Shown here: one piece after another, positions 34,488 to 63,982 of the stretch
How the letters are laid out: each line of letters opens with the position of its first letter
Position numbering within the stretch: the stretch's first letter is position 1
Source of the DNA: Bacteroidales bacterium
GTDB lineage: Bacteria; Bacteroidota; Bacteroidia; Bacteroidales; UBA3663
NCBI GenBank assembly: GCA_017519885.1
Contig: JAFWRO010000007.1
Coordinates: 39,815-103,814, forward strand
Length of the DNA stretch: 64,000 bases
Direction of reading: 5' to 3'
Position numbers and translations under genes: made by a program
The notes under the pieces: model-generated
The model's database searches: none
What the model was told of the DNA's origin: nothing
The model's input: only the letters and a program-made list of their open reading frames with translations

Positions 34488-34495
34488 TATATTTG
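34488..34495 (+). promoter_or_regulatory. -7 box TATATTTG(CG) for the pectate lyase gene
   Basis: CGTATATTTGCGGCAC lies about 50 nt upstream of the ATG at 34544. Confidence 0.6.
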
Positions 34496-34543
34496 CGGCA
34501 CAAACATATCGTTAACACTTCTTATTTCAAACCACGCACTGTC

Positions 34544-48849: not shown

Positions 48850-51315
48850 TTAGTTCTCGCACATCACCACCGACTCTCCTGCCTGAAGCTCCAGCAGGAA
48901 GCATCCGTCAGCGCCCTTCATGATTCCTCCTACCCTGCCATCGGCAGTGTGGAACACCGTCAGTGCGTCGGCCTTGGTGCCGAACACGACGCGTTGCGCC
49001 TGCCCGGTGATGTTGGCCAGAAAGAACATATCGCGCCCATCAACCAATCGATGCGTATGCACCACGGCCTCATCACCTTCCAGTATCTGAAGCGGTCTTT
49101 CGACATCGAAAGCTTGCTTGAGCACCTGTACCCCACTTGCCTGTAATCGTTCGAGTGCAGCCTGCGATGCGGGAATGACGGTGGCATCATCGGCAATGAG
49201 CAATGCCCTATAGGTGATGCCGTCGGGTGTCGTGAGTTGTCCGTCGGCGGTAGGCGAAAGCCTGTGTTGCAAGGCATCGCCCGTACACACGTCCCAATCC
49301 AGGCCGTGCAGACCGTGAGGCAACCGATGGGTCAACGTCTTCATAGGCAGATCGTCGCCCATATAGACCAGCACGTCGGGTGCCGCCTTGCCCAGTCGCA
49401 GCATCGCCATCGAGCGATTCAGTGCCATCCACATCGGCTTCATGTCCTCCCATTGCGGATTGCTGCGGTTTACGGCATAGACGCGACCTGCAACGTAAGG
49501 TTCCGTGGGATGCGCCATGGGCAGATGCGGCGTAGCGCACACCACCATCTCCTGTGCCCCATTGGCCAAAGCGATATCGGCCACACGCTTCAAACTGAGA
49601 GGCGTATCCTCGTAACTTGCATCGGTCATGGCCTCTGCCGAAGCGATAGGCTTGCCGTAGAGGTGGCAGGCCGAAGCACCGTCCTTGACGTCCCAGGCAC
49701 CATTTTTCTGATAGGCCCAGAATTCCGTCTGCGGCTTGTCCACCACCTGCTTCACATCGATGGCATCACCCGTAATGCAAAGTCCGTTGCCGATAGCTTG
49801 TGCCGTGAAAGTGAGCCCGTTCTCTCTTGCCAGACGCTGAAATGTGCCGTAGTAGTTTTCTCTCATGCAATCGTTCACAGTCCTTCGTAGGTCCAGGAGT
49901 ACGTTCTTCGTCTTTTCGACCGAATCAATGATGTAACCTGCCAGCATAGGCAGATATGGCTTCAAATCATATCCGCGCCGCATCTGGAACTCCTCCAGCA
50001 TCTGCGGTGTCCAATTTTGCGAACCGCCTTCATGCGAGTCCATGCAGACACCTTCCACCCAGTCGATGCCGTTGGTACGCAAAGTATCGAGAATGGGCTG
50101 CATATAACTGTTCCAATGCAGTTCGGCAGCTTCCTTCGAAAGTTTGTCACATTCATAGCCTAAAAGATTCTCTCTACCATGTTTCGAACGTGCTCCCGTC
50201 AGCACAGCTGCAAACCTAACAACACGCCACGAAGAGCCCTCTGGAGCTTTCCAGTGCAGTCGTCCATCTTTTATTTTTGAAGTGAGGTCAATGATGTCGC
50301 ACGACCTTACTACCTCGTCAGCGGCATACGTTGGACTTTTGTCTTGTTCCGAGAAATCGCTATGCAGGGCGGCACGTTCCTCCCATCGGTCCAGTTTTGC
50401 CTCCTGCCCCACACTCAACGTGCGCAGCAGTGTATCGCCGTAATACTTCACTCTAAATTGTTTCGCACGAGTGGCAGGGAATGCCGTTGTGCGGAAGGAA
50501 TAGCCGCTTAGGCTGCTGTACATATGCTGCAGTTCCACCACATCTTTCCACAATTCGCCATCCTCACTTGCTTGCAGCATTCCGATGGGACCAAACGTCT
50601 TGAAGAGAGCACCATCGAAGGGTCTTGGCCCCTCAATCATCGTTTCCTTTGTCTCTCGTTCCAAAACAGAATCGGGCATCTGCATTGCCCCGTTCCTGCC
50701 CTTTCCTCGGGCCACATAACGCGCCGTGAAGTGCCGATAGATGTCCGGTTCATTCCTCACAGGAAAAGCCATGACGGCAATGTCTTTCACATATCCACGC
50801 GTATCGGCTATTGCAGGCAGATCCACATCAATTTCCTGTCCTCCCTCTATCGTCATCTCTGCCGAGGTCACCCGTTGCATGGCATGAGGCGGATCAATCC
50901 ATCGTCCACCTGCCACGTAACCATTTGAAATATTTAGTTCGAACGTAAGCCCCACGCGATGTGCTTCACGTGCCGCAAACTTCAGGTGTTCCCACCACGT
51001 TGGTGAGAAGCCATCCTCTGGTTCATTCTCTTGTTTCAAACGATTATCCCCTTCCACGGCCTTCCTGCTGGGGCGATGGTTCTGATCATAATAAACCACG
51101 CCACCGAATCCAGCCTCTTTGAGCGACTCCACATCTGCCGTGATCCCTTCGTTTGTGGTGTGCTCATATCCGAAGAACCACCACGTCTTGACGCGGCTGT
51201 CGTTCCTCGTCTCCGCCGCTTTCCATACTTCAATCAGTTTATCATTGGGAGCCTGCGAGAAGAGACTGATGCTCGAAAATAGAGCCAAAAAGGGAAGAAT
51301 ATACCTTGTTTTCAT
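48850..51315 (-). CDS. Glycoside hydrolase, GH106-like (second paralogue)
   Basis: ORF 48850..51372, trimmed to MKTRYILPFLALFSSISLFSQ. The N-terminal block is RVKTWWFFGYEHTTNEGITADVESLKEAGFGGVVYYDQ. The architecture matches 20657..23089. Confidence 0.6.
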   Translation of the reverse strand: MKTRYILPFLALFSSISLFSQAPNDKLIEVWKAAETRNDSRVKTWWFFGYEHTTNEGITADVESLKEAGFGGVVYYDQNHRPSRKAVEGDNRLKQENEPEDGFSPTWWEHLKFAAREAHRVGLTFELNISNGYVAGGRWIDPPHAMQRVTSAEMTIEGGQEIDVDLPAIADTRGYVKDIAVMAFPVRNEPDIYRHFTARYVARGKGRNGAMQMPDSVLERETKETMIEGPRPFDGALFKTFGPIGMLQASEDGELWKDVVELQHMYSSLSGYSFRTTAFPATRAKQFRVKYYGDTLLRTLSVGQEAKLDRWEERAALHSDFSEQDKSPTYAADEVVRSCDIIDLTSKIKDGRLHWKAPEGSSWRVVRFAAVLTGARSKHGRENLLGYECDKLSKEAAELHWNSYMQPILDTLRTNGIDWVEGVCMDSHEGGSQNWTPQMLEEFQMRRGYDLKPYLPMLAGYIIDSVEKTKNVLLDLRRTVNDCMRENYYGTFQRLARENGLTFTAQAIGNGLCITGDAIDVKQVVDKPQTEFWAYQKNGAWDVKDGASACHLYGKPIASAEAMTDASYEDTPLSLKRVADIALANGAQEMVVCATPHLPMAHPTEPYVAGRVYAVNRSNPQWEDMKPMWMALNRSMAMLRLGKAAPDVLVYMGDDLPMKTLTHRLPHGLHGLDWDVCTGDALQHRLSPTADGQLTTPDGITYRALLIADDATVIPASQAALERLQASGVQVLKQAFDVERPLQILEGDEAVVHTHRLVDGRDMFFLANITGQAQRVVFGTKADALTVFHTADGRVGGIMKGADGCFLLELQAGESVVMCEN

Positions 51316-51341
51316 AGTTGTCCTGTTTATCCTCTTGCGTG

Positions 51342-51349
51342 CAAAGATA
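51342..51349 (-). promoter_or_regulatory. -7 box TATCTTTG(CA) for the GH106-like gene
   Basis: The minus strand reads GCTTATCTTTGCACGCA about 27 nt upstream of the ATG at 51315. Confidence 0.55.
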
Positions 51350-51410
51350 AGCTTTTTCAAAGCATATTCCAAATAATTTAGGGAGAAAGTGGAATCGACG
51401 CAGAATTAAA

Positions 51411-53258: not shown

Positions 53259-53747
53259 ATGATTTTCATCAAACAAATCACCACAGTTGAGGAGCTCTGG
53301 AACACAGCAGGGGCTCCCACCGGACAGATCGCCGTCGATGCCGTCGTCGATTACGTCAAGCGAGTAAACAGTCATTCCGCACAGCAAGTCGCCTTCTACC
53401 TGAACGTCGATCAGCGTTTCCTGAACGAGACGATGAAGTTGTTCGTAGGCGTCAGCCTCAAGGAGTTCATCATGCAATGGCGTATGCGCCAAGCTCTCGA
53501 CCTGCTCGATGACGAGAACCTCTCAGTCGAGGAAGTGGCCCATCGCTGTGGATTCCGCCGAGTAAAGAACCTCATTGCCGCCATCCACGCACGTTTCGGC
53601 ACCACCCCGTATGCCTATCGCAATGGCTCCGTACTCCGCAACGGCAACTACCGATTCAACCAGGAGACGCACCAGCGCAAGAGCATCATCGAGAATGCTG
53701 AGAAACTCCGCTCCCGCAACGAGAAACCCACTCCGAAAGAAGAATGA
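53259..53747 (+). CDS. AraC-family helix-turn-helix domain protein (short, 162 aa)
   Basis: FIMQWRMRQALDLLDDENLSVEEVAHRCGFRRVKNLIAAIHARFGTTPYAYR is a typical AraC-type double-HTH C-terminal region. Confidence 0.8.
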   Translation: MIFIKQITTVEELWNTAGAPTGQIAVDAVVDYVKRVNSHSAQQVAFYLNVDQRFLNETMKLFVGVSLKEFIMQWRMRQALDLLDDENLSVEEVAHRCGFRRVKNLIAAIHARFGTTPYAYRNGSVLRNGNYRFNQETHQRKSIIENAEKLRSRNEKPTPKEE

Positions 53748-53764
53748 TCCATCTCCAACGTCGG

Positions 53765-54177
53765 CATAACCTTTTTTGGCCAAGATTGGTTATGCTCCCA
53801 TCGCTGCATACCCTTTCTTGGCCAAGATTGGTTATTCTCCCATCGCTGCATACCCTTTCTTGGCCAAGATTGGTTATGCTCCAACCGGAGCAAGCATTCT
53901 GTCGGCCGTCAGAGTACTCTATCCAACCGCGGCATAACCATTCCTGGCCAAAACTGGTCATTCTCCTCCCTCCGCATACCCTTTCTCGGCCAGGATTGGT
54001 TATGCTCCCATCGGCGAAAGCATTCTGTCGGCCGTCAGAGTACTCCATCCAACCGCGGCATACCCATTCTTGGCTAACTTTGGTCATTCTCCCATCGTCG
54101 CATACCCATTCTTGGCCAAAATTGGTCATGCTCCTGCAGAAGAATACCCAATCTTGGCCAAGATTGGTCATGCCTCG
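53765..54177. repeat. Tandem array of about 8 copies of a 42-bp partially palindromic unit; two units carry an extra 42-bp insert
   Basis: The unit is CATAaCCtTTcTTGGCCAAGATTGGTTATGCTCCCATCGCTG, with a nested palindrome CATAACC...TTGGCCAA...GGTTATG. The insert AGCATTCTGTCGGCCGTCAGAGTACTCnATCCAACCGCGG occurs twice. Long ORFs are open on both strands (53744..54238 + and 53686..54246 -). Confidence 0.9.
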
Positions 54178-54400: not shown

Positions 54401-54668
54401 TTCTATTTGGGCGTGACTATAAGAGCATCAGCAAGCATATCAATAAAGCGCGTAAAGAGGAATTTGCAGGTTCTGTGGTAGTCGCAAAATTTGCGAATAC
54501 CACTCGACATGGAAATGAGCATTATATAAAAAATGAAGAAAGAGAATTATAAACAACAAATCGAGCAATTTTGCCTTAAAGAAAAGCAAAACAAGCATTC
54601 TAAATGTTAAATTTGCAAAATATATGCAGATTCTCAAAATAAAAGTTCATTAATTGGGATTTTATCTT

Positions 54669-54676
54669 TATATTTG
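54669..54676 (+). promoter_or_regulatory. -7 box TATATTTG(CA) for the AAA15 ATPase gene
   Basis: CTTTATATTTGCACCG lies about 23 nt upstream of the ATG at 54699. Confidence 0.6.
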
Positions 54677-54698
54677 CACCGAGAAAAACGCCAAATAT

Positions 54699-55991
54699 AT
54701 GATACAGGAAATAAAAATCAGAAACTTTTTATCGTTCAAAGATGAAGTAAAATTCAGCTTTGAGGCTACAAACGATAAGTTTGCCGAAGATTCCCAGGTA
54801 GTAACAATCAACGAGAATACCAGACTGTTACGATTTGCCATCATCTACGGCTACAATGCTTCGGGAAAATCTAATTTGATAAGCGTTTTAGATTTTTTGT
54901 CTTACTTCTGGTCTGCTAAACCTAACGACATGGATTCAAAGACCGGAGTAATACCTTTTAAGCTTGATGGCATATCTTCAGACAAACCTTCAAGCTTTGA
55001 GGTAGTATTCTTTGTGCAAGATACCAAATATTGCTATCAGTTGGAATTGGATCAGCATCAGGTATATTTAGAGAAGCTGTCATATTACAAAACGACTCAG
55101 CCCATCATGTTGTTTGAAAGGACGCTGAAAGATGGGCAGTCGGATATTCAATTTAATCCAAAGGCAGAAAAGATAAGTTCCGCAGCAAAAGATATGATAA
55201 GCGTAAATTGCCTGAAGAATACGTCTTTCTTCGTAGCACGCAACCAGGTGAACGTGAACCTTCCGATTATCGATGCGGCAAAAGATTGGATGAGGAAACA
55301 GCTGATGCCTGTGATTTCACCGACAACTGGTCTAACTTCCTACGCCCAAAAGAAAGCTTCGGAAAACAGATCATTGATAAACTACATCGTAAAATTTCTG
55401 CATGAAGCCGATTTCAACGTTACAGATGTTTCAGCCAATGTCATTAGCAAACAACTGACAGATGATGCGGTAAAGTACCTAACAGAAGAGAGTGACATCG
55501 CTGATGAAGAGACTGCAAGGGAGGTTGAAAGAATCAAAAAAGAACGAACGATCAAGCAGATTCAGACGGTATTTGAACACACGGTAGAAAATGACAATGG
55601 AACAGAGACCTACCAGATGGACAAAAAGGAAGAATCCACAGGAACGATGCGGACTTTTGGAATCGAAGCAGCCCTTTATGAGGCACTTAAGGACGAAGCA
55701 GTTCTACCGATTGATGAATTAGAGACATCGCTACACCCAATGCTGTTAGAAAAGATCTTGTTTGAATATCTGAAGACACCTTCAAGATCTCAGCTTATTG
55801 TCACAACGCACAATGACGGGTTGCTGGATTTGCTTGATGACTTAATCCGAAAAGACTCAGTCTGGTTTACCGAGAAAAAGAAGTCCGGCATTACAGACCT
55901 TTACAAGCTCACAGATTTCCGAGGGATCAATCGACTTTCGTCAATAAGGGAGGCATACCGAAACAAACGTTTTGGAGCCACAATGAGATAA
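54699..55991 (+). CDS. AAA15/AAA_21-type ATPase (OLD/Abi-like ABC ATPase)
   Basis: ORF 54654..55991, trimmed to MIQEIKIRNFLSFKDEV. Walker A is GYNASGKSN. Walker B/D-loop is VLPIDELETSLHP. The H-loop region is LIVTTHN. Confidence 0.85.
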   Translation: MIQEIKIRNFLSFKDEVKFSFEATNDKFAEDSQVVTINENTRLLRFAIIYGYNASGKSNLISVLDFLSYFWSAKPNDMDSKTGVIPFKLDGISSDKPSSFEVVFFVQDTKYCYQLELDQHQVYLEKLSYYKTTQPIMLFERTLKDGQSDIQFNPKAEKISSAAKDMISVNCLKNTSFFVARNQVNVNLPIIDAAKDWMRKQLMPVISPTTGLTSYAQKKASENRSLINYIVKFLHEADFNVTDVSANVISKQLTDDAVKYLTEESDIADEETAREVERIKKERTIKQIQTVFEHTVENDNGTETYQMDKKEESTGTMRTFGIEAALYEALKDEAVLPIDELETSLHPMLLEKILFEYLKTPSRSQLIVTTHNDGLLDLLDDLIRKDSVWFTEKKKSGITDLYKLTDFRGINRLSSIREAYRNKRFGATMR

Positions 55992-55995
55992 AACC

Positions 55996-56718
55996 ATGGA
56001 GGAAAGAGAAATTGCAGAAGGCATAGAGAAGCGTCCCTATTTTGAAACTGTCTCTCCTGTTTCGATGCCATTACCAGATGACGGAACGAGGGAGATGGGC
56101 GAGCTTTACCCATTTCTCATTTGTGGAGGCACAAACACTGAGCGCTATTATTTTACGCATATCAACGACAAAACAGAATACAAATTCAACATAAGGCCAA
56201 GGTACTTTGGCGATGAGTCGAATTATACCAACGCTTTCCCCAAAAGAATTAGAGAAGTGCTCAGTGCCAATAACGATGCGAAGATATATTGTGTATTCGA
56301 TTGGGACACGATATATGGTGATGGGACAAAGCTAAAGAAACATGAGGCTTTTGAAAAGCAATTCCAAACAGAAATCCTCAATGGAACAGTTACGATATGT
56401 CCCAGTATGCCTTGCATTGAGTATTGGTTTCTACTTCACTTTTGGGATTATACCAAGCTTTTGAAGAGCTATGGAGAAGTTGCGGACTTGTTGGCTCCAC
56501 ACTTGAAGCCGTGCTTCCCGTATGAGGATATCTCTTTGAAGAAGCTATTGAAAACCGAGAAGTATCTTATAGACCCTACGTGGGTCGAGAATCTATGCGC
56601 CGAAGGGAAACTTGCGTTAGCGATTGAGCGTGCCGAGAAAAATATTGTTGCTGCTGTTGCAAATGGAACTCTAAAAGAACAATCGTTCTCCTATGTTTAT
56701 AAGGTTTTTAAGAAGTGA
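55996..56718 (+). CDS. RloB-like (Toprim-related) protein, partner of the AAA15 ATPase
   Basis: 240 aa, starting 4 nt after the ATPase stop. FLICGGTNTERYYF resembles the RloB N-terminal (CEG.kTE..YF) block, and a later acidic block is IYCVFDWDT. Confidence 0.65.
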   Translation: MEEREIAEGIEKRPYFETVSPVSMPLPDDGTREMGELYPFLICGGTNTERYYFTHINDKTEYKFNIRPRYFGDESNYTNAFPKRIREVLSANNDAKIYCVFDWDTIYGDGTKLKKHEAFEKQFQTEILNGTVTICPSMPCIEYWFLLHFWDYTKLLKSYGEVADLLAPHLKPCFPYEDISLKKLLKTEKYLIDPTWVENLCAEGKLALAIERAEKNIVAAVANGTLKEQSFSYVYKVFKK

Positions 56719-56964: not shown

Positions 56965-57609
56965 ATGAATGAAATATCATCAAAACCCATACAACATTTC
57001 AGGAAAGGCGACGCCTTTGTAGAAATGGCACCACGCCCTCTCGTTTTCATGGAGATAAACGAGGTGGACAAGAGTACCGAGAATATGGATTTCTGTATTG
57101 TCACATGGTATATGCTTGACGAAAAGGGACTCAACGCTCAGCGACGATTCCCTATGGCTGCTCGTGATGGTAAGTTCAGCGACTTTGAACCGATTTCCCG
57201 CCGCCTTCTCAAAGAAGCTAAAAGCTTGATGCGCCAATATGATGCGGATGTAAAACTGTTGACAGAAAAGAAAGAGGTAAAGTCGCTGTACCAAGAATAT
57301 AATCGTAAGTTGATAGAGTTGCTTCCCGATGCCGAAGACAGACTAGAACTTGCAAAGCAAGAAGAAAAGAAGATTATCACAAACAAATGGCTCGACTGTG
57401 AAGATGATAACTACTGGGTGGAAGAAAACTCAGAACTAAGTGACAAGTATGCCACACTTGTATGTGTAAGAATCGATTCTTACGATGACAAGAATGATAA
57501 AACCATTACTAAGCAATCCATCTACCTGCGTAACAACTGCCCGTATGGTTGGAGCACACTCGTAAAAAGTGGTGCCAAGTATATGGTGATTGAGAAGCCA
57601 AAGAGGTAA
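56965..57609 (+). CDS. Hypothetical protein (214 aa) between the two defence-type modules
   Basis: Uninterrupted ORF with no recognisable motifs, a charged central helical segment and no signal peptide. Confidence 0.6.
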   Translation: MNEISSKPIQHFRKGDAFVEMAPRPLVFMEINEVDKSTENMDFCIVTWYMLDEKGLNAQRRFPMAARDGKFSDFEPISRRLLKEAKSLMRQYDADVKLLTEKKEVKSLYQEYNRKLIELLPDAEDRLELAKQEEKKIITNKWLDCEDDNYWVEENSELSDKYATLVCVRIDSYDDKNDKTITKQSIYLRNNCPYGWSTLVKSGAKYMVIEKPKR

Positions 57610-57715
57610 AACATTATTAATACTCGCAATTATTTTGCAGTCGTCCTAATAATGGGTAGTACTATACTTCCTTCGGTATTTCGGGCAGCAATAATAATTT
57701 TTTAGGATTACCGAT

Positions 57716-58936
57716 ATGGACAACCTATCACATTTCCACTCGTTAGAAGAACTGATACGTGCGCTGGACAGGGAGCGCCGACTGCTTCAAGCCCTGTTTC
57801 AGGACAGGAAGAAGCTGTCGTTCCGCTATGACCTGGCACGCGAATTGGCGAGCAAGCGTGATGAAAGCCTTGAGTTTCTGCGACGACACGGCATCATTCG
57901 TGAGAATATCGACTTTGTAGAACTGGAGGACGTATATCTGAAGTTCTTCGAGGATGTGCTGGAGGTGAACGAGGAGATCAGTGTGGCTAGCGTCAAGGAG
58001 AGCATCGACAGCTTGAACAATGCCATAGACTACTATCTCAGCGAGAACAATCCCGGCAGGAAGTACGGCTATCTGCGCGATGTTAAGCGGATACTGCGTA
58101 GCATTGCGCTCACGACCCTGAGGAACGTCATCGACCTGAAACGTAATATAGACAACACCTACAAGAACGAGCCGACCTTTGCCATCAAGAAAAAGAAACT
58201 GGTGCATCTCGATGAAAAGCGTCAGGACATTGCGGCCCTGATCAACGAATGCGAGAGGGTGATTGACGAGAAACAGACCACGTTCTTTATGGTGGCGATG
58301 GACGTACAGTTGAAAGACATCGTGACGGACGTGAAACTGCAACTGCGCGAGGTATATCACAACCTATTGGAGCTCGACCGACAAATCATCAACTACCTGA
58401 ACCTCATAGAGTACCAAAGCCGTCTGTTTCAGAAGGTGCAGAAGCTGAAATACCTGCGCGACCAGATGCTGCTCGACACGAATACCGACATACGGGCAAA
58501 GCTGCAGACGAGGAATCCCGTATGGATGGAACCACGGCCGAGATATGCGCTGAAGGTATCGCTCTCCATGCTCCGAAATTCGGAAGAAGGCCTCAGGGTG
58601 CTGCAGGATGTAGCCAAAGGAAAGGGCAATAGCCGTCTGAGGAAAGGGAATCTGGCCGAACCGCTGACGAAGAGCGAGCTGACAGAACAGCAGGAGGTGC
58701 TGCAGATGGTTGACGTAAGCGAGGTGAAGAATGCGTTCATGGCTTCGAGCGACCACCTGTTTCACTTCGTGATGAACTATTCCGGCTACAGAATCAAGAT
58801 GGACGATGAGGCGAAGCTGGTGCTCTTCTGTCAGATTGCCACACAGTATCTTGACGAACTGCATATCGATGACGAATTCCGTCAATATGGAGCCATCGAG
58901 TATCCCGTTATCTATCCACACTCAAAGATGATGTAA
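57716..58936 (+). CDS. jetA: JetA-like (kleisin/MksF-like) subunit of a Wadjet-like system
   Basis: 406 aa, helical and charged, first gene of a tightly packed 4-gene operon. The assignment rests on position and size only; no motif could be verified by eye. Confidence 0.5.
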   Translation: MDNLSHFHSLEELIRALDRERRLLQALFQDRKKLSFRYDLARELASKRDESLEFLRRHGIIRENIDFVELEDVYLKFFEDVLEVNEEISVASVKESIDSLNNAIDYYLSENNPGRKYGYLRDVKRILRSIALTTLRNVIDLKRNIDNTYKNEPTFAIKKKKLVHLDEKRQDIAALINECERVIDEKQTTFFMVAMDVQLKDIVTDVKLQLREVYHNLLELDRQIINYLNLIEYQSRLFQKVQKLKYLRDQMLLDTNTDIRAKLQTRNPVWMEPRPRYALKVSLSMLRNSEEGLRVLQDVAKGKGNSRLRKGNLAEPLTKSELTEQQEVLQMVDVSEVKNAFMASSDHLFHFVMNYSGYRIKMDDEAKLVLFCQIATQYLDELHIDDEFRQYGAIEYPVIYPHSKMM

Positions 58937-58941
58937 ACAAT

Positions 58942-59481
58942 ATGCGCTATACGAAAGAAATATTCGACATACTGAGCAAGGGTGGTTTCATCGCCCAGAA
59001 CTCCATCTCGCAGCAGCGTTCACACCTGTACGATGCCATAGAGGATGACTTCAACGACTATCAGGAGTACTTCAGCGGCATAGGGTTCCAGTTGGAGGGT
59101 GGCAATGGCTACTACTATTTCTCAAGGGCAGAGAACAGGGTGGATCTGACTGACAAAGTGCAACGCCTGGCACAGTGGATTGACCGTGTGGATTTCCTCA
59201 AGACGTTCAACAACACCTTTGCATCGGGCTTTACGTTCCGCAAGTCGAACATCCTCGAACAGTTCTCAAGCGACATCGAGTTGAAGGAAAAGGCACGCAA
59301 CCTATATACGGATGTGAAGACCAACGAAGAGAAGATCGACAAACTGGTAGGCGACCTGGAGCGAATGGGGTTCGTGGAGCTGGAGAACGAGCTGGACGGC
59401 ACCTACAAGGTGACTGCCGCCTTCCACTATATCGAGGAACTGATAGATTGTCTCACCATCATCGAAACGGAAAAGTCATGA
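58942..59481 (+). CDS. jetB: JetB-like (DUF4194/MksE-like) subunit
   Basis: 179 aa. The block YQEYFSGIGFQLEGGNGYYYFSR resembles the DUF4194 pattern (yf..iGl.L..de.eGyayL). It starts 5 nt after jetA-like, and its stop overlaps the next ATG. Confidence 0.6.
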   Translation: MRYTKEIFDILSKGGFIAQNSISQQRSHLYDAIEDDFNDYQEYFSGIGFQLEGGNGYYYFSRAENRVDLTDKVQRLAQWIDRVDFLKTFNNTFASGFTFRKSNILEQFSSDIELKEKARNLYTDVKTNEEKIDKLVGDLERMGFVELENELDGTYKVTAAFHYIEELIDCLTIIETEKS

Positions 59482-62400
59482 GAGCACTACGCAAGATCGC
59501 CTTTATCAACAGTGCCAATATACGTTATGCAGAAGTGAAGCTGGACGGCAACGTTCACTTTATCGGCACGCAGGGTGTGGGCAAGAGCACTTTGCTCAGG
59601 GCCGTCCTGTTTTTCTACAATGCCGACAAGCTGCATCTGGGCATACCCAAGGAGATGAAGTCGTTCGACGAATTCTATCTGCCCCATGCCAATTCGTACG
59701 TGGTCTATGAAGTGGAGCATGAGCACGGACCTTTCAGCATCCTTGTGTTCCGCTCGTCGGGCAGAGCATGTTATCGGTTTGTAGATGCCGCCTACCGAAA
59801 AGAATGGCTGGTGGACGAACGCGGCGAAGTGACGGCAGAATGGAAGGTGATACGCGACAGGCTCGGCAGTGCCTACATGAGCAAGATCATCGACCGCTAT
59901 GAGCAGTATCGCGATATCCTCTATGGCAACAAGCAGACTGTAGGGAAAGAGTTTGCGCGCTTCCAGCTGCTGGAGACCAACAGTTACCAGAATATCCCCC
60001 GAAGCATACAGAACGTGTTTCTCAACTCACGCCTGGATGCCAATTTCATCAAGGACATCATCATCCGTTCGATGAGCGATGAAGAGGCGAATATCGACCT
60101 GGGGTATTTCCGCAGGCAGGTGGCAGACTTTGAGCAGGAGTACAAAGACATCTCCTGCTGGTACAAGCTGAACCAGAAGGGAGAGTCGATGGTCAGGAAA
60201 CAGGCGGATGCTGTAGTGAAAGCCTACCACGAACTGCTGTACATGAGGCAGCAAATAGAAGAATTGTGCGGTGAGCTGAAATATGCCGAACGGGTGTCGC
60301 GAGAGAAACTCCCGCTGATCGAAGCTAGGATTGCAGAACTGACCCAGGAGCAAGACCGGCAAAAGCGCCTCGTGTCGGAGATCCAGCAAAAGCATGATGC
60401 TGAGAAAACGAAGCTGAACCAGGACCAGGGTGTTGTGAACGACAAACTGAAACGTCTGAAGGAGCGGAAAGAATACTATTCTGCTCAGCAGATAGAAAGC
60501 GTGCTGAGCCGCTGTGAAAGAGAGCAGGGTCTGAAGGCCGAACTTGAAAGTCTCAAGGACAAGCTGGCAGACCTGACAGCACGGTTCAACGATGTCACCA
60601 CGAAATACAAGGCCTTGCGCCAGAATATCACCCATCAGCTTGAATCGTTCCGACAAGCGCAGCAGCAACGCATCCTCTCGGAAGAGGAAGAAAAGCAAAA
60701 GACTGACGAACGTTTGCTGAAAGCCTTCACGGTTGCGAGGACAGAGATCGAGCAGTCTTTTACAGAGAAGATGACAGAAGCTTCGAATGTAATCGATTCC
60801 GTGAAGGCGGAGATGAATGATTGCGAAAAAGAACTTCTAAAATTAAAGTATCTCGTACCGTTCAAAGAAGAAAAGGAGTCGCTGAATCAGCAACTGTATG
60901 AGCTGCAACTCAGCGAGAAAGAGCTGACGGGCAAGATAGGCTCATTGGCTTCTGACATCAACCGCATTCAGGCAGAATATGACAAGAAAGAGGCTGAAAC
61001 GACTGCTGACTACCAACGAAAGCTGGAAGAAAAACAAGCGGAGATTGAGAAATATTCAGCACAGATTACCGCTATTGACAGGTTGCTTGAACGCACAAAG
61101 GGATCACTCTACGAATGGCTTGAAGAGAACAAGATCGACTGGGAACAGAACATCGGCAAGATCATCAACGAGGAGAAGGTGCTTTATCAGACAGGTCTGC
61201 ATCCGCAGATGGCCGAAGGTGCTTCGCTGTATGGCGTGAAGCTTGCCTTGACCGACCTGCCGCTTAATGTCAGAAAACCAAAGCAGCTTCAGGAAGAGAA
61301 GTCGAACCTGGAGAAGGAACTGAAGCGAAGAAAAGAGGAATGTCAGCAGATTCAGCAACAGCAGGAAAAGGCCATCGAAGCGTTGAAACACCAGTTCGCA
61401 CCCCAGATAAAGGAACTTCGCCAGCAGAAGTCGCTTGCTGAAACGGAGCTTCGAGTGATACCTCAACGACGAAAGTCTATCGCTGTCAGAATCGAAGACT
61501 ATGAGGCGAGAGCCAAGCAAATCATCGAGGAAAGACAGCATGCACTCAATACGCGTCAGCAGGAGTTGGCCCACAAATTATCATTGGCACTAAGCACTCT
61601 TGAGAAGCTAAATGCCGACAAGCAGAAGCAGTTGAATGGTGCAGAGAAGAAGTATCGTGAAGCCGAGGACGAAAATGTCAAAGTGCATGCCGAGCGTGTA
61701 GCTACTATCAATGCCGAGACCAAGGTTAGCGAGAAGAACGCCGATACTGAACTGATGAGGCTGAAGCAACAAGAGATAGACGAGCTGAAAGGCCGTGGTG
61801 CAGATACAACGCTTGTGGAGGACTGCAAGGCGAAGATAACGTTGGCCGAAGATGAACTTCGCTTTATTGACGCGCATCGCAAACTGGTGTATGACTATCA
61901 GCGAGACAAGGAAGAGCTCTTTGACCAGGAGGACAACTTGAAGAATCAGAAGAAAACGCTTTCAGAAAAGCTGTTGCAACTGAATGAGAAGTATCAGCAA
62001 CGCAAACTCAAGTACGACCAGCAGCTGGCTGCCTTAGGCAGGGAACTGGCAGAACGCAGAGATGAACAGAAACATCTGGATGAAGAATTGCAGAAAGCTG
62101 ACCGTTTTGCTCATGACGAGAACCTGTGCCCACCGATGTATGCCGATGCGAAGGAGAAACAGACGTTGCGCACACCCGGACAGGCCGTTGACGAGCTGAC
62201 GGGCATCATAGTTCAACGTCAGTCGCGCCATAACCAGTTCAAGCAGAGCGTCAATGTGTTCAAGAGCAATTTCTCGGCGAAGAACACTTTCAACTTCAGA
62301 ACAGAGCTGACGATAGACGATGACTACCTTGATTTCGCCAGCAATCTCGACGACTTCCTCATCAATAACAAACTGGAAGAGTATCGGCGCAGGACCAGTG

Positions 62401-63125
62401 TACGGTATGTGGATATCCTGGCGCGAGTGTCGAAGGAGATGGGCGAGCTGACGCGCCATGAGTCGGACGTTGACAAAATTATTCACGAGATCAACAGAGA
62501 TTTCAAGGAACGCAACTTTGTCGGAGTCATCAAGCTCATTGCCTTGCAGTCGATCCCCTCAACCGACAAAATGGTACAGTTGATGAAGCGCATCAAGGAA
62601 TTCAATGATGAGAACCAGTTTGCCATGGGTGAGCTGAACCTGTTCTCAACCGTCAACAGGGACGAGGTAAACCAGAAGGCAGTCAGTCATTTGCTCGACT
62701 TCATGAAGTCGCTAACGGATAATCCTTCGCGTCATTATCTGACGCTCTCCGACTTGTTCCAACTGCAGTTCCGCATCATCGAAAACGACAACGATACAGG
62801 ATGGGCAGACAAACTGTCGCATGTGGGCAGTGAGGGTACCGATACGCTGGTCAAGGCGATGATCAACATCATGCTCATTAATGTGTTCAAGGAGAAGGTA
62901 AGCAGAAAATTCGGCGACTTCTTCATCCATTGCATGATGGACGAGATAGGCAAGCTGCATCCCCAGAATGTCAAGGGAATACTCGACTTTGCCAACGCTC
63001 GCAACATCCTGCTCATCAATTCATCACCTACAACCTATAACGTCTCTGACTATCGCTACACCTATCTCTTACAAAAGGACGGAAAGTCGAAGACCATCGT
63101 TCATCCATTGATTTCGCAGAAATGA
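59478..63125 (+). CDS. jetC: JetC-like SMC/Rad50-family ATPase
   Basis: ORF 59448..63125, trimmed to MRALRKIAFINS (ATGA overlap with the jetB-like stop). Walker A is GTQGVGKST. A K/E/Q-rich coiled coil of roughly 700 aa follows. The C-terminal head has GSEGT, and Walker B is FFIHCMMDEIGKL. Confidence 0.8.
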   Translation: MRALRKIAFINSANIRYAEVKLDGNVHFIGTQGVGKSTLLRAVLFFYNADKLHLGIPKEMKSFDEFYLPHANSYVVYEVEHEHGPFSILVFRSSGRACYRFVDAAYRKEWLVDERGEVTAEWKVIRDRLGSAYMSKIIDRYEQYRDILYGNKQTVGKEFARFQLLETNSYQNIPRSIQNVFLNSRLDANFIKDIIIRSMSDEEANIDLGYFRRQVADFEQEYKDISCWYKLNQKGESMVRKQADAVVKAYHELLYMRQQIEELCGELKYAERVSREKLPLIEARIAELTQEQDRQKRLVSEIQQKHDAEKTKLNQDQGVVNDKLKRLKERKEYYSAQQIESVLSRCEREQGLKAELESLKDKLADLTARFNDVTTKYKALRQNITHQLESFRQAQQQRILSEEEEKQKTDERLLKAFTVARTEIEQSFTEKMTEASNVIDSVKAEMNDCEKELLKLKYLVPFKEEKESLNQQLYELQLSEKELTGKIGSLASDINRIQAEYDKKEAETTADYQRKLEEKQAEIEKYSAQITAIDRLLERTKGSLYEWLEENKIDWEQNIGKIINEEKVLYQTGLHPQMAEGASLYGVKLALTDLPLNVRKPKQLQEEKSNLEKELKRRKEECQQIQQQQEKAIEALKHQFAPQIKELRQQKSLAETELRVIPQRRKSIAVRIEDYEARAKQIIEERQHALNTRQQELAHKLSLALSTLEKLNADKQKQLNGAEKKYREAEDENVKVHAERVATINAETKVSEKNADTELMRLKQQEIDELKGRGADTTLVEDCKAKITLAEDELRFIDAHRKLVYDYQRDKEELFDQEDNLKNQKKTLSEKLLQLNEKYQQRKLKYDQQLAALGRELAERRDEQKHLDEELQKADRFAHDENLCPPMYADAKEKQTLRTPGQAVDELTGIIVQRQSRHNQFKQSVNVFKSNFSAKNTFNFRTELTIDDDYLDFASNLDDFLINNKLEEYRRRTSVRYVDILARVSKEMGELTRHESDVDKIIHEINRDFKERNFVGVIKLIALQSIPSTDKMVQLMKRIKEFNDENQFAMGELNLFSTVNRDEVNQKAVSHLLDFMKSLTDNPSRHYLTLSDLFQLQFRIIENDNDTGWADKLSHVGSEGTDTLVKAMINIMLINVFKEKVSRKFGDFFIHCMMDEIGKLHPQNVKGILDFANARNILLINSSPTTYNVSDYRYTYLLQKDGKSKTIVHPLISQK

Positions 63126-63982
63126 AGATTACGGCATCACTCATCAACAGGCTTATCCGTCTTCGCAACGGTGAGAGACTGCCCGCCAGCCAGCTTCGTA
63201 CCGAGTGGATTGATGAACTAGTGCGCGAAGGGGTGATTGTAAACACCTCTCATGGCAGCCAGCGTACCATCTTTGTGTCTCAGCCAGACGCATTCCAACA
63301 AGCTCTATCCGCCATCGACGAAAGACTATCCGATCTGGATTTGCTTCAAGACACACTGCAGACTGACGAGACATCTCGTTCTGTTCAAGCTTCTGTTACT
63401 GGCAATTCAAAACTCATAGCCATACGTTCATGTCCTGGTTTCCCTGTCAACTCATACGAACCAATACCTTGTATGCTGAATGGAAGCGAAATAACGGTAA
63501 ACCCTGCCGAAGGCAGTTTTGTGTTTATAGCCGATTGGCAGTCGTTTGCCATTCCCTGTGACGTCATTGTTGTAGGCATTGAGAATATGGAGAATTTTCG
63601 TATGATTCGCCAGCAGCGAGCATTGTTTGAGCAGACGATTGGCTCCCACCGTTTGCTGTTTGTCTCCCGTTATCCACAATCCACTGACCTTCGTTCCTGG
63701 CTGCAGTCCATCCCCAATCGCTATGTCCATTTCGGGGATTTCGATTTGGCTGGAATACACATTTTCCTCACCGAATTTCAAACCTTTTTAGGAGAGCGCA
63801 GTTCGCTCTTTATACCTGAAGATATAGACCAAAAGTTGGCTAATGGTTCCCTGGAAAGGTATAACGCGCAATACCCCAAATTCAATTACCTAACAACAGA
63901 AATTCCTGTTCTTCAGCATCTTATTGATACAATAAACATGTATCATAGGTGTTATGATCAAGAAGGATACATAAATGCTTAA
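63122..63982 (+). CDS. jetD: JetD-like Toprim (DUF2220-type) nuclease subunit, short form
   Basis: 286 aa with an ATGA overlap with the jetC-like stop. It has VIVVGIENMENFRMI and YVHFGDFDLAGIHIF, which fit the ENxxxF and GDxDxxG Toprim signature of JetD/Topo VI-A-like proteins. Confidence 0.7.
   Translation: MKITASLINRLIRLRNGERLPASQLRTEWIDELVREGVIVNTSHGSQRTIFVSQPDAFQQALSAIDERLSDLDLLQDTLQTDETSRSVQASVTGNSKLIAIRSCPGFPVNSYEPIPCMLNGSEITVNPAEGSFVFIADWQSFAIPCDVIVVGIENMENFRMIRQQRALFEQTIGSHRLLFVSRYPQSTDLRSWLQSIPNRYVHFGDFDLAGIHIFLTEFQTFLGERSSLFIPEDIDQKLANGSLERYNAQYPKFNYLTTEIPVLQHLIDTINMYHRCYDQEGYINA

What the first reader, a model, noticed from the sequence alone, without database searches (positions are those of the whole stretch)
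57716..63982. Compact Wadjet-like jetABCD operon with unusually short JetA- and JetD-like subunits
Four co-directional genes of 406, 179, 1215 and 286 aa are packed with a 5-nt gap and two ATGA start/stop overlaps (59478-59481 and 63122-63125).

- Gene 3 is an SMC/Rad50-type ATPase. It has Walker A GTQGVGKST, a very long K/E/Q coiled coil, and Walker B FFIHCMMDE.
- Gene 4 carries the ENxxxF ... GDFDLAG Toprim signature of JetD.
- Gene 2 has a DUF4194-like YF.GIGF.LEGGNGYYYF block.

Order and chemistry match the Wadjet (JetABCD / MksBEFG-like) anti-plasmid system. From memory, canonical JetA is noticeably longer. Canonical JetD is also about 100 aa longer and has an extra N-terminal domain. The Walker A (GTQGVGKST) also differs from the usual G.NGSGKS. 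This may therefore be a minimal or divergent subtype rather than a textbook Wadjet.
Basis: partly seen in the sequence, partly recalled or inferred. Interest (0 to 1): 0.7.

Follow-up and report, generated by a model that had tools for sequence, protein, structure and literature searches.

The report
Divergent Wadjet-like SMC nuclease operon
These four tightly packed Prevotella genes encode a DNA-loop-extruding SMC complex plus a DNA-cutting enzyme, a very divergent relative of the Wadjet anti-plasmid system that current defence-gene and annotation models miss although it is common in gut Bacteroidales.

Summary
Four co-directional genes (406, 179, 1215 and 286 aa) have a 5-nt gap and two ATGA overlaps, and all quoted motifs are present and invariant across the family.

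- **Gene 1:** no sequence family, but a confident model (pLDDT 91.8) whose ten best PDB matches are all JetA or MukF kleisins.
- **Gene 2:** a full-length Pfam MksE (KITE subunit).
- **Gene 3:** a full-length DUF3584 (MksB/MukB-like) ATPase.
- **Gene 4:** a DUF7281 protein. Its best fold matches are Topo VI-A, Spo11 and JetD. It carries the five published MksG/JetD motif blocks in the same order and similar spacing, behind an N-terminal part about 70 aa shorter.

The module is conserved in every sufficiently long one of 80 related loci. Gene 4 relatives occur in at least 221 species, mainly Prevotellaceae and other Bacteroidales, and related modules reach Bacteroides, Cytophagales plasmids and Moduliflexus. 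Neighbours vary. PADLOC's Wadjet I–III models give only feeble partial hits. PGAP calls the genes hypothetical, and no paper in the library describes the lineage.

Best reading: a fourth, MksBEF-proper-like lineage of Wadjet/MksBEFG plasmid restriction. A nuclease-less three-gene version also exists. Function is inferred, not shown.

The parts
57716..58936 (+). Gene 1, 406 aa: kleisin subunit (JetA/MksF/MukF-like). N-terminal winged helix (aa ~10-70), long helical bundle (~72-250), flexible linker (~250-330), C-terminal winged-helix-like domain (~334-401).
   Evidence: No Pfam, NCBIfam or PADLOC family, even for members only 24% identical. AlphaFold2 model on 71 diverse sequences has pLDDT 91.8. 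Foldseek top 10 are all kleisins: JetA 8q72_E (E 7.3e-4, 479 columns) and MukF 9gm7, 3euh, 9gm9, 3rpu, 7nz2 and 1t98. The family has 422 clusters at 50% identity with a constant length of about 400 aa.
58942..59481 (+). Gene 2, 179 aa: KITE subunit (MksE/JetB/MukE-like).
   Evidence: Pfam PF21980 MksE, E 4.4e-42, profile positions 2-163 of 163. NCBIfam condensin MksE is weak (E 3.5e-6, 26.7 bits against a cut-off of 400). DUF4194/JetB is only E 0.01-0.036.
59478..63125 (+). Gene 3, 1215 aa: SMC-like ABC ATPase (MksB/JetC/MukB-like). Walker A at 59565-59591, Q-loop-like block at 59991-60026, conserved mid-protein hinge-like block at 61101-61160, signature-like VGSEGTD at 62823-62843, Walker B at 62919-62945.
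   Evidence: Pfam PF12128 DUF3584, E 6.5e-69, profile positions 12-1175 of 1191. Head motifs are invariant in 24-65 homologues. The arms (aa ~250-550 and ~600-850) match only coiled-coil proteins in the PDB. PADLOC JetC1 matches only the first 44 residues.
63122..63982 (+). Gene 4, 286 aa: CAP-like winged helix plus Toprim nuclease (JetD/MksG-like, DUF7281). R86..S96-K97 at 63377-63412, I-E154-N-M-E157-N-F at 63578-63598, SRY184 at 63665-63682, FGD206FD208LAG at 63731-63754, YD279QE281GY at 63953-63970.
   Evidence: Pfam DUF7281, E 1.3e-7. PADLOC JetD1, E 5e-4, on the Toprim part; the same holds in four other diverse family members. Foldseek top hits are Topo VI-A 9o8p_A (E 1.3e-3, 269 columns), Spo11 8urq_A, Topo VI-A 1d3y and JetD 7til_B, from a model of only pLDDT 68.5. 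Motif residues are invariant down to 30% identity and match the MksG/JetD blocks in supplementary Fig. S4 of PMC10123090.
57610..57715 (+). 106-nt A+T-rich intergenic region upstream of gene 1, the presumed promoter region of the operon (not demonstrated).
   Evidence: It is the only sizeable gap before the four overlapping or abutting genes. A sigma-70-like match at 57590-57617 is no better than chance, and Bacteroidota promoters are not covered by that scan.

Best explanation
The four genes encode a MukBEF/Wadjet-class SMC complex armed with a nuclease.

- Gene 3 dimerises through its mid-protein hinge and long coiled coils.
- Gene 1, the kleisin, bridges the ATPase heads and, like MukF and JetA, probably pairs two motors through its N-terminal winged helix.
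- A gene 2 KITE dimer sits on the kleisin.
- This ATP-driven core loads on DNA and extrudes loops. On a small circular molecule extrusion runs to completion and stalls. The stalled complex then presents bent DNA to a gene 4 dimer, whose Toprim site cuts it with metal ligands E154 (perhaps with E157) and D206/D208 plus the Q280-E281 block.
- The result is restriction of plasmids and other circular extrachromosomal DNA, while the large chromosome is spared.

Shown here: subunit identities, operon conservation, invariant catalytic motifs, accessory distribution. Inferred from type I and II Wadjet biochemistry: loop extrusion, circle sensing and the cleavage trigger.

The lineage is separate from Wadjet types I-III. 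Its KITE and ATPase subunits belong to the MksE (PF21980) and DUF3584 families, and its nuclease has a short CAP-like domain without the long 'arm'.
For: - **Subunit identities:**
- **Nuclease motifs:** five MksG/JetD motif blocks lie in the same order with similar spacing. In gene 4: R86 then 11 residues to K97, 57 to E154, 52 to D206, 73 to D279/E281. In MksG: R156, then 10, 70, 43 and 70. They are invariant to 30% identity. E236A and D279A abolish MksG nuclease activity (PMC10123090).
- **JetD link:** JetD is the best PADLOC hit for all five diverse DUF7281 proteins, in four of them spanning most of the Toprim half.
- **Operon conservation:** the order kleisin-KITE-SMC-nuclease with translational coupling is kept in all 62 loci where gene 1 was found (59 in this order, 3 with the nuclease gene first). 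It also holds at 25% gene 1 identity in Moduliflexus, and in a contig beside conjugative-transposon genes.
- **Accessory, mobile behaviour:** no conserved neighbour. Flanks mix housekeeping genes with AlbA_2/HATPase_c_4, YhcG PDDEXK, RhuM, Fic and HNH genes. An AbiL-like pair lies directly upstream in the window.
- **Plasmid copies:** found on Persicobacter and Phocaeicola plasmids.
- **Known mechanism of relatives:** Wadjet I and II cleave circular DNA after extrusion (10.1101/2025.03.10.642339; PMC10586767).
Against: - No experiment exists on any member of this lineage.
- The gene 4 model is of mediocre confidence (pLDDT 68.5). Its fold matches are marginal (E 1e-3 to 2e-2), and Topo VI-A and Spo11 score above JetD.
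- Profiles of all four families find no solved Wadjet or MukBEF protein by sequence.
- The nearest curated families of genes 2 and 3 are those of MksBEF-type condensins. A nuclease-less DUF3584 trio in Shewanella has cisplatin and motility phenotypes, not defence phenotypes (10.1101/072470).
- The shorter CAP-like domain means nuclease docking and activation may differ. The JetB IFDR-JetD aCAP contact of type I cannot be assumed.
- Copies on 65-76 kb Phocaeicola 'plasmid' records would be within the size range that type I Wadjet cuts.
Confidence: 0.7

Rival explanations
1. It is a chromosome-maintenance or DNA-repair condensin of the MksBEF type, as in Pseudomonas or Shewanella. Gene 4 would be an accessory DNA-processing factor, for example resolving or cutting damaged or entangled chromosomal DNA, rather than a weapon against foreign DNA.
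For: - Gene 2 falls in the Pfam MksE family and gene 3 in DUF3584.
- A Shewanella DUF3584 gene is cofit with two adjacent hypotheticals and is important under cisplatin stress.
- A three-gene version without the nuclease exists in the same family (L089/L090).
- A review notes that no condensin homologue was identified in some Bacteroidales (PMC11894783).
Against: - The distribution is patchy and accessory, with no conserved neighbours and presence on plasmids and beside conjugative-transposon genes.
- The nuclease catalytic motifs are invariant and the gene is translationally coupled to the ATPase gene.
- NCBIfam MksE scores 26.7 bits against an equivalog cut-off of 400.
- Every characterised SMC-plus-Toprim four-gene system is a plasmid restriction system.
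Confidence: 0.15
2. It is a defence system with a different target or trigger from Wadjet. For example, it could act against phage or ICE DNA, or act by abortive self-cleavage, using the SMC core only as a generic DNA sensor.
For: - It lies next to an AbiL-like pair, and in other loci next to AlbA_2/HATPase_c_4, PDDEXK, Fic and HNH genes.
- The nuclease N-terminal domain differs from the JetD aCAP, so the activation logic may differ.
- JetABC and JetD of different types are not interchangeable.
Against: The subunit set and order are exactly those of Wadjet. No extra sensor or effector gene is conserved with the module. No homologue was found in 50,697 phage records, which says nothing either way about targets.
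Confidence: 0.1
3. Gene 4 is a true Topo VI-A/Spo11-type enzyme that makes covalent, reversible tyrosine-linked breaks. The system would then be a topoisomerase-like machine rather than a nuclease.
For: Topo VI-A and Spo11 are the top fold matches and align over about 270 of 286 residues, covering the winged helix plus Toprim. The size (286 aa) is close to the 290-residue M. jannaschii Topo VI-A chain.
Against: - There is no invariant tyrosine in the N-terminal winged-helix region (aa 1-100) in alignments of 10-48 members.
- No GHKL B-subunit gene is linked.
- The conserved R..[S/T]K and [D/E]QE blocks are MksG/JetD features.
- Y184 is replaced by F in Segatella copri.
Confidence: 0.04

Closest known systems
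Wadjet / JetABCD (= MksBEFG, EptABCD), types I-III
   Same: - It has four subunits in the same gene order: kleisin, KITE, SMC-like ATPase, then CAP-plus-Toprim nuclease.
- The kleisin fold matches JetA (8q72_E).
- The nuclease shares the R..K, VEN, GDxDxxG and [D/E]QE blocks with MksG/JetD.
- It has an accessory, island- or plasmid-borne distribution.
   Different: - None of the four proteins reaches the type I-III profile models. PADLOC E values are 3e-4 to 0.04 over short stretches, and the kleisin has no hit.
- The KITE is PF21980 (MksE), not DUF4194 or DUF2398.
- The kleisin has no Pfam family (not DUF3375) and is about 60 aa shorter than the JetA chain.
- The nuclease is DUF7281. It is about 90-120 aa shorter, with only about 85 residues before the R..K block against about 155 in MksG, so it lacks the long arm of the aCAP.
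- Three species have the nuclease gene first.
MksBEF condensin (Pseudomonas aeruginosa type; Shewanella DUF3584 trio)
   Same: The KITE falls in the Pfam MksE family and the ATPase in DUF3584, each over the full profile length. The kleisin is likewise not in an annotated family. A nuclease-less three-gene form exists within this very family (L089/L090).
   Different: - A Toprim nuclease gene is translationally coupled to the ATPase gene.
- NCBIfam MksE equivalog score is 26.7 against 400 bits, and there is no NCBIfam hit for genes 1 or 3.
- The genomic location is variable and partly on mobile elements, rather than a housekeeping locus.
MukBEF
   Same: MukF is among the best structural matches of gene 1, including the N-terminal dimerisation domain (1t98, 3euh, 9gm7). 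The overall kleisin-KITE-SMC logic and the dimer-of-motors architecture are expected to be shared.
   Different: No sequence-level match to MukB, MukE or MukF. MukBEF has no nuclease. Gene order also differs, since in E. coli it is mukF-mukE-mukB without a fourth gene (from general knowledge).
Topoisomerase VI-A / Spo11
   Same: The fold order is a winged-helix (CAP) domain followed by Toprim. The acidic metal ligands E and DxD are present. The size is similar to archaeal Topo VI-A.
   Different: There is no conserved catalytic tyrosine in the CAP-like domain and no B subunit. It is embedded in an SMC operon.

Membership tests
Wadjet (JetABCD/MksBEFG) | SMC-like ABC ATPase with Walker A/B, signature motif and long coiled-coil arms (JetC/MksB) | tested here: met
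   DUF3584 at E 6.5e-69 over the full length. GxxGxGKS, hhhhDE and a signature-like SxG are invariant. The arm regions hit only coiled-coil proteins.
Wadjet (JetABCD/MksBEFG) | Kleisin with N-terminal WHD, helical bundle and C-terminal WHD (JetA/MksF) | tested here: met
   Met at fold level only. The model has pLDDT 91.8, and the Foldseek top 10 are all JetA or MukF. No sequence or profile match was found.
Wadjet (JetABCD/MksBEFG) | KITE subunit (JetB/MksE) | tested here: met
   Pfam MksE PF21980 at E 4.4e-42, full length. JetB/DUF4194 models are below threshold.
Wadjet (JetABCD/MksBEFG) | Toprim nuclease with a CAP-like N-domain and conserved acidic metal ligands (JetD/MksG) | tested here: met
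   Invariant E154, D206xD208 and Q280-E281, plus R86..S96-K97, match the MksG/JetD blocks. Fold matches are Topo VI-A, Spo11 and JetD. JetD is the best PADLOC hit in 5 of 5 diverse members. Weak points: model pLDDT is 68.5 and the E values are marginal.
Wadjet (JetABCD/MksBEFG) | Four genes in one operon, order A-B-C-D | tested here: met
   Conserved in 59 of 62 loci, with 3 permuted to D-A-B-C.
Wadjet (JetABCD/MksBEFG) | Recognition by the type I, II or III profile models used to call Wadjet | tested here: not met
   PADLOC v2.0.0 results: JetA none; JetB E 0.036; JetC E 3e-4 (44 residues); JetD E 5e-4 (about 70 of 409 positions). The same holds for distant members. DefenseFinder was not available.
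Wadjet (JetABCD/MksBEFG) | ATP-dependent cleavage of circular DNA, and reduced plasmid transformation | not testable with these tools
   This needs an experiment.
MksBEF condensin (nuclease-less) | MksE and MksB family membership | tested here: inconclusive
   Pfam MksE and DUF3584 are met over the full length. The NCBIfam MksE equivalog scores 26.7 against 400 bits, and no NCBIfam model matches genes 1 or 3. Reference P. aeruginosa sequences could not be fetched for a direct comparison.
MksBEF condensin (nuclease-less) | Three-gene operon without a nuclease, in a stable chromosomal role | tested here: not met
   The nuclease gene overlaps the ATPase gene. The neighbourhood varies, and copies lie on plasmids and next to ICE genes.
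Topoisomerase VI-A / Spo11 | Catalytic tyrosine in the 5Y-CAP domain, and a partner GHKL B subunit | tested here: not met
   No invariant Tyr in aa 1-100. No linked B-subunit gene.
OLD / Gabija GajA / PARIS-type ATPase-Toprim systems | ABC ATPase and Toprim in one polypeptide or a two-gene pair, without kleisin or KITE | tested here: not met
   The ATPase and Toprim are separate proteins, with kleisin and KITE genes between or before them. The upstream AAA_21 + RloB pair is a separate AbiL-like unit.

The most novel reading that the evidence does not exclude
This would be a fourth Wadjet lineage that is the nuclease-bearing sister, or parent, of the 'true' MksBEF condensins (the PF21980/DUF3584 type). 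It keeps a minimal Topo VI-A-sized nuclease with a short CAP domain, and it has members that have already lost the nuclease (L089/L090). It would therefore capture the proposed transition from a defence system to a chromosome organiser. It would also be a widespread, so far uncounted barrier to plasmid uptake in Prevotella, Segatella and Bacteroides.
Probability: 0.4. Interest if true: 0.7.

Novelty: new variant of a known kind. Interest (0 to 1): 0.55.

Why it matters
- **An uncounted defence system.** Wadjet is counted in about 5-10% of bacteria on the basis of three types. This lineage escapes PADLOC's Wadjet models and PGAP naming. Yet it has thousands of protein clusters in gut and rumen Bacteroidales, including Segatella copri, Leyella stercorea, Bacteroides and Parabacteroides. 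If it restricts plasmids, surveys of gut defence repertoires under-count Wadjet-like immunity.
- **A possible cause of poor tractability.** It would also be a concrete candidate for the poor genetic tractability of Prevotella and Segatella (the tractability problem is from general knowledge and was not checked here). Deleting it, or using vectors that evade it, could help.
- **Mechanism.** A nuclease about 100 aa shorter, without the aCAP arm, offers a natural minimal version for asking how an SMC motor licenses a Toprim nuclease.
- **Evolution.** An MksE/DUF3584-type core occurring with and without the nuclease bears directly on the proposal that MksBEF and MukBEF descend from a defence system.

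Tried and rejected
- **Single-sequence and profile searches against PDB sequences** for all four proteins found no Wadjet, MukBEF or Topo VI hit, only coiled-coil noise for gene 3.
- **Pfam scan of ten distant gene 1 relatives** gave no family.
- **NCBIfam scan of distant operons** gave nothing useful.
This was solved for gene 1 by searching with an alignment of representatives. It was not solved for gene 4, whose alignment stayed shallow (65-99% identity), hence the pLDDT of 68.5.
- **A conserved fifth gene** was looked for and not found. The AlbA_2/HATPase_c_4 gene inside some operons is sporadic.
- **Recent import of gene 4** was considered because of its low GC3, and rejected: the GC3 drop is seen across the family.
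- **Sigma-70 promoter and terminator scans** were at chance level.
- **Petrushenko et al. 2011** is not held.
- **Reference JetA-D or P. aeruginosa MksBEF sequences** could not be obtained, so no profile-profile comparison was run.
- **Literature searches** for DUF7281, for a fourth Wadjet type, and for Wadjet in Bacteroides or Prevotella returned nothing relevant.

Full report
**1. The observation**

The window holds four co-directional ORFs at 57716-58936 (406 aa), 58942-59481 (179 aa), 59478-63125 (1215 aa from the ATG) and 63122-63982 (286 aa). Read directly from the sequence, gene 1 ends in TAA, then come five bases (ACAAT) and the ATG of gene 2. Genes 2/3 and 3/4 overlap by ATGA at 59478-59481 and 63122-63125. 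The ORF lister offers an upstream TTG for gene 3, but all homologues begin at the ATG that overlaps the stop of gene 2. The window ends 18 nt after gene 4.

**2. Family assignments by sequence**

- **Gene 2** matches Pfam MksE (PF21980) at E 4.4e-42 over positions 2-163 of 163.
- **Gene 3** matches DUF3584 (PF12128) at E 6.5e-69 over positions 12-1175 of 1191.
- **Gene 4** matches DUF7281 (PF23947) at E 1.3e-7 over its C-terminal half. JetD_C reaches only E 0.086.
- **Gene 1** matches nothing in Pfam, NCBIfam or PADLOC.
- **PADLOC's Wadjet models** give only feeble, partial hits: JetB E 0.036, JetC1 E 3e-4 on 44 residues, JetD1 E 5e-4 on about 70 positions. NCBIfam gives a weak MksE hit for gene 2, at 26.7 bits against a cut-off of 400.
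- **PDB sequences:** neither the single sequences nor the family profiles find any solved Wadjet, MukBEF or Topo VI chain.

**3. Conservation and distribution**

- **Database size.** Gene 1 and gene 4 each have thousands of homologues, named where named at all as Prevotella hypothetical proteins.
- **Species count.** A scan of one genome per species found relatives of gene 4 in at least 221 species. Most are Prevotellaceae and other Bacteroidales, including Segatella copri, Leyella stercorea and Prevotella merdae. Bacteroides and Parabacteroides goldsteinii carry related gene 1 proteins.
- **Operon conservation.** Genes 1-3 are present next to gene 4 in every one of the 80 fetched loci that has enough flanking DNA. 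Gene 1 was found in 62 of them. The order is g1-g2-g3-g4 in 59, and g4-g1-g2-g3 in three (L027, L029, L037).
- **Two clades.** They differ at about 65-93% against 37-50% identity to the window in genes 1-3.
- **Variable neighbours.** No flanking gene is conserved. The 148 nearest flanking ORFs mix housekeeping genes with AlbA_2/HATPase_c_4 (6), YhcG PDDEXK (4), RhuM, Fic and HNH (3 each). There is no control set, so I do not claim enrichment.
- **Neighbours in this strain.** An AbiLi/AbiLii-like pair (AAA_21 + RloB) lies directly upstream. Contigs carrying the identical gene 4 show, downstream, small ORFs, an AAA ATPase, an AAA_34/Helicase_C_4 protein and a group II intron reverse transcriptase.
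- **Plasmids.** The module is on a 157-kb Persicobacter plasmid, where PGAP names the genes 'hypothetical', 'hypothetical', 'ATP-binding' and 'hypothetical'. Gene 4 also matches two Phocaeicola massiliensis plasmid records. No phage record matched.
- **Breadth and length.** An exhaustive search gave 422 gene 1 clusters at 50% identity, with a steady length of about 395-410 aa down to 24% identity. One member is from Candidatus Moduliflexus.
- **Distant operons.** At that distance the operon is still g1-MksE-DUF3584-DUF7281, in Moduliflexus (L086) and in L087 next to DUF4134/DUF4133 conjugative-transposon genes. L089/L090 keep only the first three genes.

**4. Gene 1 is a kleisin**

With an alignment of 71 diverse members, the AlphaFold2 model has mean pLDDT 91.8. 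It shows an N-terminal winged helix, a long helical bundle (aa 72-250), a lower-confidence linker and a C-terminal helices-plus-hairpin domain. In Foldseek against the PDB, the ten best matches are all kleisins of the MukF/JetA kind: JetA of E. coli JetABCD (8q72_E, E 7.3e-4, 479 aligned columns) and MukF from six entries. Global TM-scores are low, as expected for a flexible multi-domain protein. The exclusive kleisin ranking and the full-length alignments are the evidence.

**5. Gene 4 is a JetD/MksG-like nuclease with a short N-terminal domain**

- **Model quality.** Only a shallow alignment was admissible, so the model is mediocre (pLDDT 68.5). It shows a winged helix (aa 1-82), a disordered linker (aa 82-104) and an alpha/beta core.
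- **Fold matches.** The best are Topo VI-A (9o8p_A, E 1.3e-3, 269 columns; 1d3y), Spo11 (8urq_A) and JetD (7til_B, E 2.2e-2).
- **PADLOC.** Independent support comes from five diverse DUF7281 proteins. The best PADLOC hit is always JetD, at E 9e-5 to 2e-3. In the Persicobacter and Moduliflexus members it spans most of the C-terminal Toprim half.
- **Motifs.** Supplementary Fig. S4 of the MksG paper lists the conserved blocks of MksG/JetD: R156..K166 ('..TK'), VE236N, Y258, WGD279xD281xxG and E349-Q-E351. E236A and D279A abolish nuclease activity. Gene 4 has R86-x10-K97 (S96-K97), I-E154-N, SRY184, FGD206-F-D208-LAG and D279-Q280-E281, in the same order with similar spacing.
- **Invariance.** R86, S96, K97, E154, E157, D206, D208, Q280 and E281 are invariant down to 30% identity.
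- **Where the length goes.** About 85 residues precede the R..K block here, against about 155 in MksG. The missing ~70 residues therefore lie in the N-terminal CAP/arm region.
- **Not a covalent topoisomerase.** No tyrosine is invariant in aa 1-100, as in JetD and MksG and unlike Topo VI-A.

**6. How it most likely works**

By analogy with type I and II Wadjet, the gene 1-2-3 core is an ATP-driven, loop-extruding DNA sensor. It probably works as a dimer of motors joined through the kleisin N-terminal domain. On small circular DNA it extrudes to completion and then licenses a gene 4 dimer to cut. Subunit identities, invariant catalytic residues, translational coupling and accessory distribution are shown here. 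Loop extrusion, circle sensing and the licensing step are inferred.

Because the nuclease lacks the long arm, its docking to the core probably differs from the type I JetB-IFDR/JetD-aCAP contact. The invariant R86..S96-K97 stretch sits in a predicted flexible linker, and its role is open.

**7. Comparison with known systems**

- **What it works like.** Functionally and architecturally it is Wadjet/MksBEFG.
- **Failed membership test.** It fails one test for Wadjet types I-III, namely recognition by the type-specific profile models.
- **Nearest curated families.** For the KITE and ATPase subunits these are MksE and DUF3584. A DUF3584 gene forms a nuclease-less trio in Shewanella, with cisplatin and motility phenotypes.
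- **Link to MksBEF evolution.** The Wadjet literature recognises only three types. [quoted passage not shown] A lineage with an MksE/DUF3584 core that usually has, but sometimes lacks, a Toprim nuclease fits that proposal and may document it.
- **What I could not do.** I could not obtain reference P. aeruginosa MksBEF or JetA-D sequences, so the placement relative to those is not established.

**8. Rivals**

- **Chromosome-maintenance or repair role (0.15).** The family names and the Shewanella phenotype suggest it. The accessory, mobile distribution and the conserved coupled nuclease argue against it.
- **Defence with a different target or trigger (0.10).** This cannot be excluded.
- **A covalent topoisomerase-like mechanism (0.04).** This is unlikely without a conserved CAP tyrosine or a B subunit.

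**9. Novelty and verdict**

No paper in the library mentions DUF7281, a fourth Wadjet type, or Wadjet in Bacteroides or Prevotella. The kind of system is known. The lineage appears undescribed and unannotated, and it is abundant in gut Bacteroidales.

I rate it a new variant of a known kind, with interest 0.55. Confidence that it is a Wadjet-like SMC-nuclease system acting on extrachromosomal circular DNA is 0.7.

One caveat on taxonomy: several loci are labelled as Firmicutes or even archaeal MAGs (for example L020, L029, L069). They are 72-83% identical in gene 1 to this Prevotella sequence, where gene 1 is on the contig. They all come from a single study, so they are probably binning errors.

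Noticed in passing
window 54654-56718 (+): A two-gene AbiL-like defence pair lies directly upstream. It comprises a 445-aa AAA_21/AAA_15 ATPase (PADLOC AbiLi, E 4.8e-71) and a 240-aa RloB-family protein (AbiLii, E 4.6e-19), 4 nt apart.
   Followed up: partly
window 56965-57609 (+): A 214-aa ORF between the AbiL-like pair and gene 1 has no family hit. It has no homologue next to the module in the 80 related loci and is present only in contigs of the same strain (L081, L084).
   Followed up: partly
window 53764-54173: A degenerate tandem array of a 42-bp unit (9.8 copies, 68% matches; higher-order 126-bp period at 83%) contains a TTGGCCAA palindrome. It creates spurious overlapping ORFs on both strands, just after an AraC-type HTH_18 gene (53259-53747).
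   Followed up: partly
L045 4786-6330, L056 4786-6330, L057 4722-6356; also L029 10885-12588: A 514-567-aa AlbA_2 (Schlafen) + HATPase_c_4 (+ HTH) protein is inserted co-directionally between genes 2 and 3 in three loci, and between gene 4 and gene 1 in one. Paralogues lie beside the module in several other loci. It could be a sporadic accessory or regulatory partner, or simply a common island gene.
   Followed up: partly
L027, L029, L037 (gene 4 at 10001-~10870, gene 1 from ~10900/12700): A permuted operon has the nuclease gene first (g4-g1-g2-g3). There is no second copy of any gene in the locus.
   Followed up: partly
L089 8001-13770 and L090: A distant branch of the same family has only kleisin-MksE-DUF3584, followed by an acetyltransferase and no DUF7281 nuclease. 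This is an MksBEF-like three-gene form.
   Followed up: partly
window 63122-63982 versus 57716-63125; 56 related loci: Gene 4 has lower GC3 than genes 1-3, here (0.45 against 0.64-0.72) and family-wide (mean 0.47 against 0.54-0.58). Its identity to the window levels off at 55-60% in both clades, and L039 pairs far-clade genes 1-3 with a gene 4 that is 64% identical to the window's. The nuclease gene does not track the core genes cleanly, which may reflect module exchange.
   Followed up: partly
window 58957-58974 (gene 2 aa 6-11, EIFDIL): The N-terminus of the KITE subunit has a conserved T-x-x-I-F stretch (T4 and I7 invariant, F8 nearly so). It is reminiscent of the N-terminal IFDR motif of type I JetB that contacts JetD. 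The D is not conserved, so this may be coincidence.
   Followed up: no
window 63377-63412 (gene 4 aa 86-97) and aa 102-112 RSCPGFPVNSY: Invariant R86, S96 and K97 lie in or next to a segment predicted as a disordered linker (pLDDT below 50 for aa 82-104). A block conserved in Bacteroidales (R102, G106, F107) follows it. The first corresponds to the R156..K166 block of MksG. The role of the second is unexplained.
   Followed up: partly
window 20657-52887: The rest of the window looks like ordinary Prevotella polysaccharide-utilisation genes. They include a SusC-like TonB-dependent receptor (28885-32118), GH2 (23102-25951), GH106 rhamnosidase (48850-51372), a pectate lyase (34493-37540), and a 1703-aa GLUG/Big_2/dockerin protein (42582-47693). 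The defence genes begin only after about 53.2 kb.
   Followed up: partly
L081 14705-20861: Downstream of the module in the same strain lie a 548-aa AAA ATPase, a 1090-aa AAA_34/Helicase_C_4 protein, and a group II intron reverse transcriptase (RVT_1 + GIIM). This suggests the island continues beyond the window.
   Followed up: no
L020, L024, L025, L029, L033, L034, L036, L037, L069: Contigs labelled Clostridium, Oribacterium, Lachnospiraceae, Agathobacter, Methanomethylophilaceae and so on carry modules 57-64% (gene 4) identical, and where gene 1 is on the contig 72-83% identical, to this Prevotella one. All come from one MAG study ('cleanbin'). They are probably mis-binned Bacteroidales contigs, not cross-phylum transfer.
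   Followed up: no
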